This document shows, piece after piece, positions 40,658 through 41,101 of a stretch of DNA of 64,000 nt. The notes under the pieces are model-generated. The model did not search any database. It was not told the DNA's origin and saw nothing but the letters and a program-made list of their open reading frames with translations. The translations under genes were made by a program, and so were the position numbers. This DNA is from Octopus vulgaris. Its lineage: Eukaryota. Location: positions 2,666,001 through 2,730,000 of the forward strand of contig CATOCA020000001.1 of the NCBI GenBank assembly GCA_951406725.2. Reading direction: 5' to 3'. Position 1 is the first letter of the stretch; each line of letters opens with the position of its first letter.

Positions 40658-41101
40658 AAATAATAGTTATCGCCATACTAATATGGCATTCTTATAAAAA
40701 TAAGAATAAAGCTGTCCGCTTATTAGCTCCATGAGGCCATCGCCTTAAGTTAGCTATTTGATACACAAACTGTATCCATATAACCTTCGAACAAGGGAGG
40801 TCAGTCGCTCCACACTACTTGACCGAAGCTAGGTAAATAAAACCTTCGAACAGAGATTGTCAGAAGCGACACCTACTGGTCTGGCTATGCTGCATTGAAA
40901 AGGGGCAATACCCCGAAACGCGTCTGTAGCTGCCGGTCAAATAGTGTGGAGCGACTGACCTCCCTTGTTCGAAGGTTATATGGATAGGGTTTGTGTATCA
41001 AATAGCTAACTTAAGGCGATGGCCTCATGGAGCTAATAAGCGGACAGCTTTATTCTTATTTTTATAAGAATGCCATATTAGTATGGCGATAACTATTATT
41101 T
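40658..41101. repeat. Inverted repeat with arms of about 168 bp (40658-40825 and 40934-41101) and a spacer of about 108 bp
   Basis: aaataatagttatcgccatactaatatggcattc...cacactacttgaccg is the near-exact reverse complement of cggtcaaatagtgtgg...gtatggcgataactattattt. Confidence 0.95.
40889..40930 (+). ncRNA. Minimal type I hammerhead, U3-A8 core variant
   Basis: gctgca-TTGAAAA-gggg[caata]cccc-GAAA-cgcg-TC-tgtagc: 6-bp stem I, perfect stem II, palindromic stem III, GUC site. Confidence 0.75.

What the first reader, a model, noticed from the sequence alone, without database searches (positions are those of the whole stretch)
40658..41101. U3-A8 hammerhead variant in the loop of a 168-bp inverted repeat
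Seen: gctgca-TTGAAAA-gggg[caata]cccc-GAAA-cgcg-TC-tgtagc (40889-40930) has all three helices and a GUC site, but its core is UUGAAAA, a second independent compensatory change of the 3-8 pair. It abuts the right arm of a near-perfect inverted repeat. Established: Penelope-like insertions often carry a partial inverted copy of the pLTR next to a hammerhead. Inference: a PLE-type mini-element whose transcript forms a long dsRNA stem opened by self-cleavage in the loop.
Basis: partly seen in the sequence, partly recalled or inferred. Interest (0 to 1): 0.75.

Follow-up and report, generated by a model that had tools for sequence, protein, structure and literature searches.

The report
Hammerhead-bearing Penelope-type insertion stub
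This is a short, folded-back insertion of an abundant jumping-gene family, probably in an octopus, whose self-cutting RNA motif carries a known core variant shared by the whole family, so it is a real but fairly ordinary new example.

Summary
The 168-bp inverted repeat (165/168) and the type I hammerhead with a UUGAAAA core are at the stated places; chance gives about 0.01 such motifs per window. Contigs from four public runs show a multi-copy family with no other letter listed at positions 3 or 8 (3% threshold), so U3-A8 is the family state and not decay of this copy. The variant is published, including the same seven-letter core in a Schistosoma Penelope-like element (PLE). The locus has the textbook PLE insertion footprint: an inverted truncated copy, a tail on one end only, and a (TA)n target. 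The inverted arm looks like an insertion by-product formed at a microhomology; in folding models it destroys the native rod around the ribozyme. The lone hammerhead has a palindromic helix III and needs a partner, and a cut in the loop would not open the duplex. No link to a PLE reverse transcriptase could be tested. The hammerhead's canonical shape leaves open that the family is a non-coding retrozyme moved by PLE enzymes. Cleavage is untested.

The parts
40646..40657 (.). (TA)n tract at the left junction; likely target microsatellite
   Evidence: a target-site duplication cannot be told apart from the (TA)n itself
40658..40825 (-). inverted, truncated second copy of 40934-41101; holds no hammerhead core; carries the family letters at all three arm mismatches
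40822..40833 (+). inversion junction; its reverse complement matches 40927-40937 (TAGCT then CGGT), a likely fold-back priming microhomology
   Evidence: score reached by 0.9% of 27,715 position pairs; 2.1% if only spacer letters are used; family upstream letters from 2 contigs
40826..40888 (+). family sequence 5' of the hammerhead; pairs with about 40932-40985 to form a rod with the ribozyme at its tip; 40888 is T here and C in the family
   Evidence: (z = -4.64, 0 of 200 shuffles)
40889..40930 (+). type I hammerhead motif, U3-A8 core, 6-bp helix I, 4-bp helix II, palindromic helix III, predicted cut after 40924
40934..41101 (+). 3' part of the element with several small hairpins; ends at the main family end; three letters private to this copy (40941, 40987, 40988)
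   Evidence: z = -2.07; other copies join (AT)n behind 41099 and 41101
41102..41156 (+). one-sided 'tail', about 45-55 nt of family sequence present at the right end only; outer end approximate
   Evidence: family depth continues to at least 41144; variant tails in loose ends at 41118
41157..41202 (.). (TA)n tract at the right junction

Best explanation
This is a 5'-truncated insertion (about 500 bp) of a multi-copy, hammerhead-bearing RNA family moved by Penelope-like (PLE) enzymes, in a probable octopod genome. Shown: motif, inverted arm, family abundance, U3-A8 as family state, family ends at 41101 and a longer tail. Inferred: the PLE endonuclease nicked a (TA)n tract; reverse transcription began inside the RNA (tail end on the right), ran through the hammerhead to about 40822, and the new strand re-primed at a roughly 10-nt microhomology just 3' of the cut site, either by folding back on itself or by meeting a second cDNA primed at the other target strand; this made the inverted arm, which ends at the main start site 41101. 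The inverted repeat is thus a by-product of this one insertion. In the source RNA the hammerhead sits at the tip of a rod and would cut after GUC as a dimer, two copies pairing through the palindromic helix III; U3-A8 keeps the 3-8 pair. This genomic copy has one hammerhead, a private change in loop 1 and a competing arm, so it is probably a poor or inactive cutter. Whether the source is the pseudo-LTR of a coding PLE or a non-coding retrozyme is open (roughly even).
For: Family: 1570, 1249, 324 and 63 contigs laid in 4 of 4 runs, 3 organism labels. No other letter at 40895 or 40900; the only two variants in 40889-40930 are N7 (0-21%) and a G-U to A-U change in helix I (0-35%). Both partners of three predicted pairs vary in a way that could keep pairing (40884/40933, 40875/40942, 41053/41070; linkage not shown). 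Footprint matches published PLE insertions: adjacent inverted 5'-truncated copy, tail at one end only, (TA)n bias (PMC8557442 passages; PMC3846280 passages); two internal RT starts explain the tail and AT-rich DNA is cut (PMC11167929). In X1, X2 and X12 depth is highest at 41068-41089, as 5' truncation predicts (contig depth is a rough guide only). Two copies co-fold into the dimeric hammerhead, -53.3 against -47.2 kcal/mol for two monomers. In a metagenome scan, 3 of 9 C3-G8 matches to the same helix II/III motif lie 70-720 nt behind an RT-like ORF on the same strand.
Against: No PLE ORF in the window: 0 of 38 ORFs tested hit GIY-YIG, and the RT hits belong to APE-type LINEs; no genome was held to look for one. 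Invariance of the core is not statistically above background: 0 of 12 core positions vary against 1.2 expected (P = 0.28); 2 of 42 against 23 of 230 (P = 0.39), so selection on the core is not shown. The tail is longer than the published 30-40 bp. No target-site duplication is discernible. No ORF follows the hammerhead, unlike the anole element. A related subfamily appears to replace the helix I 5' strand (loose ends at 40879; 6 contigs in X1, 3 in X6). Only contigs at least 80% alike were laid. Rfam does not score the motif.
Confidence: 0.8

Rival explanations
1. One reading: the inverted repeat is a functional part of a mini-element; its transcript forms a 168-bp dsRNA stem that loop cleavage opens or processes.
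For: A transcript across the locus would fold into the long stem (-330 kcal/mol) and keep helix II (0.96) and helix I in about 0.63 of the ensemble.
Against: Junction not seen among joints in 4 runs; two contigs run on upstream with other letters; the single opposite-strand joint is at 40904/41050. Native rod pairs drop to 0. Monomeric helix III is unstable and such monomers showed no cleavage in vitro (PMC4209133). A loop nick does not unpair the stem. Caveat: short junction contigs may have been filtered out.
Confidence: 0.07
2. The family is a young repeat whose founder carried an inactivated hammerhead; U3 and A8 are two neutral transitions copied to all descendants.
For: Three quarters of laid contigs in X1 are at least 95% alike (1171 of 1570); core invariance is not significant; hammerhead cleavage was not needed for insertion in vitro in the anole PLE (PMC11167929); 8 of 9 Xenopus retrozyme dimers did not cleave (10.64898/2026.07.22.740005).
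Against: The two changes are exactly compensatory and the other ten core letters are canonical; the two variants seen are the tolerated kinds; U3-A8 ribozymes are reported active (PMC3088659).
Confidence: 0.15
3. The element is a DNA-transposon-like palindrome (MITE or foldback), or the inverted arm is an assembly artefact.
For: Near-perfect terminal inverted repeat in (TA)n; the junction is not confirmed by contigs.
Against: The arms differ at 3 places; the family extends past the right arm as a one-sided tail; the spacer pairs with the right arm as one RNA; the hammerhead has a chance rate of 0.01.
Confidence: 0.05

Closest known systems
Hammerheads in pseudo-LTRs of animal Penelope-like elements, including the U3-A8 families of Schistosoma mansoni (Cervera and De la Pena 2014, PMC4209133)
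   Same: Type I, tiny palindromic helix III, dimer logic, dispersed single copies; about 1,300 U3-A8 hits in S. mansoni, and a Cercyon PLE listed with the same UUGAAAA letters (supplement Fig. S3).
   Different: Those are minimal motifs with longer helix II and an extra base after A9; this one has 6-bp helix I, 4-bp helix II, an internal loop 1 and no extra base. The three mollusc entries among the 56 listed have C3-G8; none is a cephalopod.
Insertion structure of endonuclease-bearing PLEs (Craig et al. 2021, PMC8557442; Arkhipova et al. 2013, PMC3846280; Frangieh et al. 2024, PMC11167929)
   Same: 5' truncation, adjacent inverted partial copy, tail at one end, AT-rich or (TA)n target, palindrome at the inverted junction.
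   Different: No ORF remnant; tail about 45-55 nt instead of 30-40; parent element not found.
Animal non-LTR retrozymes (Cervera and de la Pena 2020, PMC7229834; Li et al. 2026 preprint 10.64898/2026.07.22.740005)
   Same: Canonical type I shape, non-coding, strongly self-paired (63% of 40826-41101 paired), size range compatible; one contig has a head-to-tail joint 41104 to 40836.
   Different: This locus is not a tandem array; circular RNA not shown; U3-A8 core.
Natural U3-A8 hammerheads (Perreault et al. 2011, PMC3088659)
   Same: Same compensatory 3-8 pair, described there as active in vitro.
   Different: Here it is the majority state of an animal repeat family.

Membership tests
Type I hammerhead ribozyme | Core N3 U G A N N8 A ... 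GAAA ... UH with a 3-8 pair, three helices, open helix I | tested here: met
   helix III only as a dimer
Type I hammerhead ribozyme | Match to an Rfam hammerhead model | tested here: not met
   0 matches at E up to 10; likely due to the core variant and missing helix III (inference)
Type I hammerhead ribozyme | Core conserved more than its surroundings across copies | tested here: inconclusive
   0 of 12 core positions vary, 1.2 expected, P = 0.28
Type I hammerhead ribozyme | Self-cleavage after the UH triplet | not testable with these tools
   needs in vitro assay; only contigs were available
Penelope-like element insertion | Adjacent inverted 5'-truncated copy | tested here: met
Penelope-like element insertion | Tail extension at one end only | tested here: met
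   length about 45-55 nt, longer than the published 30-40
Penelope-like element insertion | AT-rich or microsatellite target | tested here: met
   (TA)n on both sides; other copies end on (AT)n (2 contigs)
Penelope-like element insertion | Target-site duplication | tested here: inconclusive
   only (TA)n matches
Autonomous PLE pseudo-LTR | Same sequence flanks a PLE RT plus GIY-YIG ORF | not testable with these tools
   no genome held; none in the window; contigs too short
PLE minimal hammerhead | Extra base between positions 9 and 10.1, long helix II, poorly defined loop 1 | tested here: not met
   helix II starts directly after A9, 4 bp; definition from PMC4209133
Non-LTR retrozyme | Canonical type I shape in a non-coding, self-paired unit of about 170-400 nt | tested here: met
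   full unit length not known
Non-LTR retrozyme | Tandem head-to-tail copies | tested here: inconclusive
   not at this locus; one contig joint 41104 to 40836 in X1
Non-LTR retrozyme | Abundant circular RNA | not testable with these tools
   no raw RNA reads offered

The most novel reading that the evidence does not exclude
The family is a non-coding, rod-shaped octopod retrozyme whose canonical-shaped hammerhead has switched wholesale to U3-A8 and still cuts, and whose dispersed copies carry the full PLE insertion footprint (inverted arm, one-sided tail, (TA)n target). That would be footprint-level evidence that animal retrozymes are inserted by PLE enzymes, which the 2026 preprint infers from phylogeny, and many inversion junctions could be mapped against the RNA's own self-complementarity to test how PLE inversions form.
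Probability: 0.3. Interest if true: 0.5.

Novelty: new member of a known kind. Interest (0 to 1): 0.27.

Why it matters
It adds a probable cephalopod family to the short list of animal repeats with a U3-A8 hammerhead, in a canonical rather than minimal frame. I found no report of one in the library searched. The junction gives a clean example of microhomology at a PLE inversion. Neither the core variant nor the insertion shape is new, so a specialist would not be surprised; the useful open question is whether the family is a coding element's end or a retrozyme.

Tried and rejected
Whole genome: none held. Rfam: no hammerhead in the window or the region. Other copies in the window: none beyond the two arms. 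Earlier scan notes by place, by sequence and by octopus words: nothing that fits. Metagenome pattern scan: 17 loci, none from this family; 9 C3-G8 (7 with a 6-bp helix I, 2 with 3-4 bp), 7 U3-G8 in GC-rich DNA without helix I, 1 U3-A8 with a 2-bp helix I, taken as chance. Viral contigs: 0. Calling the RTs of L005, L010 and L013 Penelope-like rests on recalled motifs; Pfam gave only weak RVT_1 for 2 of the 3 and the structure-sequence search gave no telomerase hit for the 2 tried. Expression: no RNA holder listed; run X6 is only guessed to be RNA, so its 63 contigs show nothing about transcription. Summed contig depth was not converted to a copy number. X1 or another run may be the window's source sample. 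Lunse et al. on dimer cleavage is not held; it is known to me only through the review PMC6765202. Supplement file 1 and part 3 of file 2 of PMC4209133 were not seen, nor the preprint's supplements; repeat libraries for octopus were not searchable and may already hold this family.

Full report
Observation. The arms 40658-40825 and 40934-41101 match at 165 of 168 places with a 108-nt spacer. The spacer holds a type I hammerhead motif on the + strand: helix I 40889-40894 with 40925-40930, core UUGAAAA at 40895-40901, helix II of four G-C pairs, GAAA, the palindrome ACGCGU and GUC with the cut after 40924. A strict descriptor finds only this site in the window and 0.01 sites per window in 100 shuffles. 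Rfam does not score it (0 matches at E up to 10). Helix III does not form in a monomer: closing it costs 5.6 kcal/mol, while two copies co-fold into the dimeric hammerhead at -53.3 against -47.2 kcal/mol for two monomers.

Setting. The window is repeat-dense animal DNA: tandem arrays and three APE-RT LINE fragments; none of 38 ORFs tested (of 83 listed; mostly low-complexity and array frames were left out) hit GIY-YIG. The only species name among the 120 listed relatives of a neighbouring LINE protein is the octopod Argonauta hians (58%), and I recall the SINE arrays near 61.5-62.9 kb as octopus-like; the host is therefore probably an octopod, not proven. No genome was held.

Family test. Twenty of 24 listed runs hold part of 40200-41156. 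I laid 4 of them on 40826-41150 at 80% likeness and a 3% listing threshold: 1570, 1249, 324 and 63 contigs, three organism labels. No other letter is listed at U3 (40895) or A8 (40900). Within the 42-nt motif only two places vary: N7 (A to C, 21, 14, 3 and 0%) and 40892 (G to A, 35, 15, 7 and 0%), which turns a G-U pair into A-U. So U3-A8 is the family state. This copy has four private letters. Three are the arm mismatches, all on the right arm, where the left arm has the family letter; the fourth, 40888, is in loop 1. Loose ends at 40879 suggest a subfamily that has lost the helix I 5' strand.

Native fold. Without the left arm, 40826-41000 folds as a rod with the hammerhead at its tip (z = -4.64, 0 of 200 shuffles; helix I at 0.99). 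Both partners of three predicted pairs appear in the variant list with letters that would pair, but linkage is not shown, and other variants break terminal pairs. With the left arm, the sampled rod pairs fall to 0 and helix I to about 0.63.

Ends and junction. Family sequence continues past the right arm for about 45-55 nt and is absent at the left end; single contigs in two runs end at 41099 and 41101 on (AT)n. Both flanks are (TA)n, which hides any target duplication. Two contigs from two runs continue upstream of 40829 with letters unlike the left arm beyond a shared ACCGAA, no joint reproduces this junction, and one opposite-strand joint lies at 40904/41050 (short junction contigs could have been filtered). 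The reverse complement of the junction matches 40927-40937 at 9 of 11 letters, a score reached by 0.9% of 27,715 position pairs (2.1% using spacer letters alone).

Mechanism. Published PLE insertions are 5'-truncated, often have an adjacent inverted truncated copy and a 30-40-bp tail at one end, and some clades favour (TA)n (PMC8557442, passages). Palindromes at inverted junctions are read as self-priming (PMC3846280, passages). In the anole element, AT-rich DNA is cut on both strands, reverse transcription starts at two internal sites that bound the tail, and hammerhead cleavage was not needed for insertion in vitro (PMC11167929, first two of four parts). I infer that this locus arose the same way, with re-priming at the microhomology making the left arm. 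The arm is then a by-product.

What is known. U3-A8 was reported in nature in 2011 and described as active in vitro (PMC3088659, sections 8-9 and passages). It was found in S. mansoni PLEs with about 1,300 hits (PMC4209133, first two of four parts). That paper's supplement (file 2, parts 1-2 of 3) lists 56 animal motifs, two with U3-A8, one a Cercyon PLE with the same UUGAAAA letters; its three mollusc entries have C3-G8. The present motif differs in having the canonical shape (6-bp helix I, 4-bp helix II, no extra base after A9), which that paper and PMC7229834 (sections 3, 14 and passages) tie to tandem non-LTR retrozymes. A 2026 preprint argues these derive from PLE pseudo-LTRs, and found cleavage in 1 of 9 dimers (first three of five parts). 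One contig has a head-to-tail joint 41104 to 40836, a weak hint of tandem units. In metagenomes, nine loci share the helix II/III motif with C3-G8, and three lie behind an RT-like ORF on the same strand; none belongs to this family. Six literature searches found no cephalopod U3-A8 hammerhead; passages of the Octopus vulgaris repeat paper do not mention ribozymes and the giant squid paper counts 235 Rfam hammerheads. Earlier notes of this scan describe similar stubs and U3-A8 cores in other genomes; they are unchecked leads.

Verdict. Real feature; new member of a known kind; confidence 0.8 in the PLE-type insertion reading; interest 0.27. Open: parent element or retrozyme, and cleavage.

Noticed in passing
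window 40203-40645: About 440 bp bounded by TG and CA with short inverted ends, directly left of the insertion, with a purine-rich run at 40135-40170; looks like an LTR.
   Followed up: no
window 6914-21266: 184-bp tandem array of about 78 copies; no hammerhead match in it.
   Followed up: partly
window 38245-39506, 41200-41410, 45743-46597: A 230-271-bp unit with a (TA)n tract occurs as tandem arrays and as an inverted single copy right of the insertion.
   Followed up: no
window 30437-32865 (+), 34737-37193 (-), 42982-45590 (+): Three broken APE-RT LINE copies.
   Followed up: partly
window 41501-41957 and 42336-42790: Near-identical duplication at about 835-bp spacing; recent duplication or assembly effect.
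   Followed up: no
window 40879, contigs of runs X1 and X6: Related subfamily in which the helix I 5' strand is replaced while a core-like stretch remains.
   Followed up: no
window 41000-41090: A run of small hairpins just inside the main family end; a variant contig keeps one hairpin with changed letters. Possible RT-binding signal.
   Followed up: partly
L010:306-2441 and L013:1-3344: Two 57%-identical 673-aa RT-like ORFs, each followed by a C3-G8 hammerhead with bulged helix I; L013 has a 279-nt terminal direct repeat and a second 323-aa ORF.
   Followed up: partly
L006:1160-1190: C3-G8 hammerhead whose core-to-GUC stretch differs from this one only at positions 3 and 8 and by one loop letter.
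   Followed up: partly
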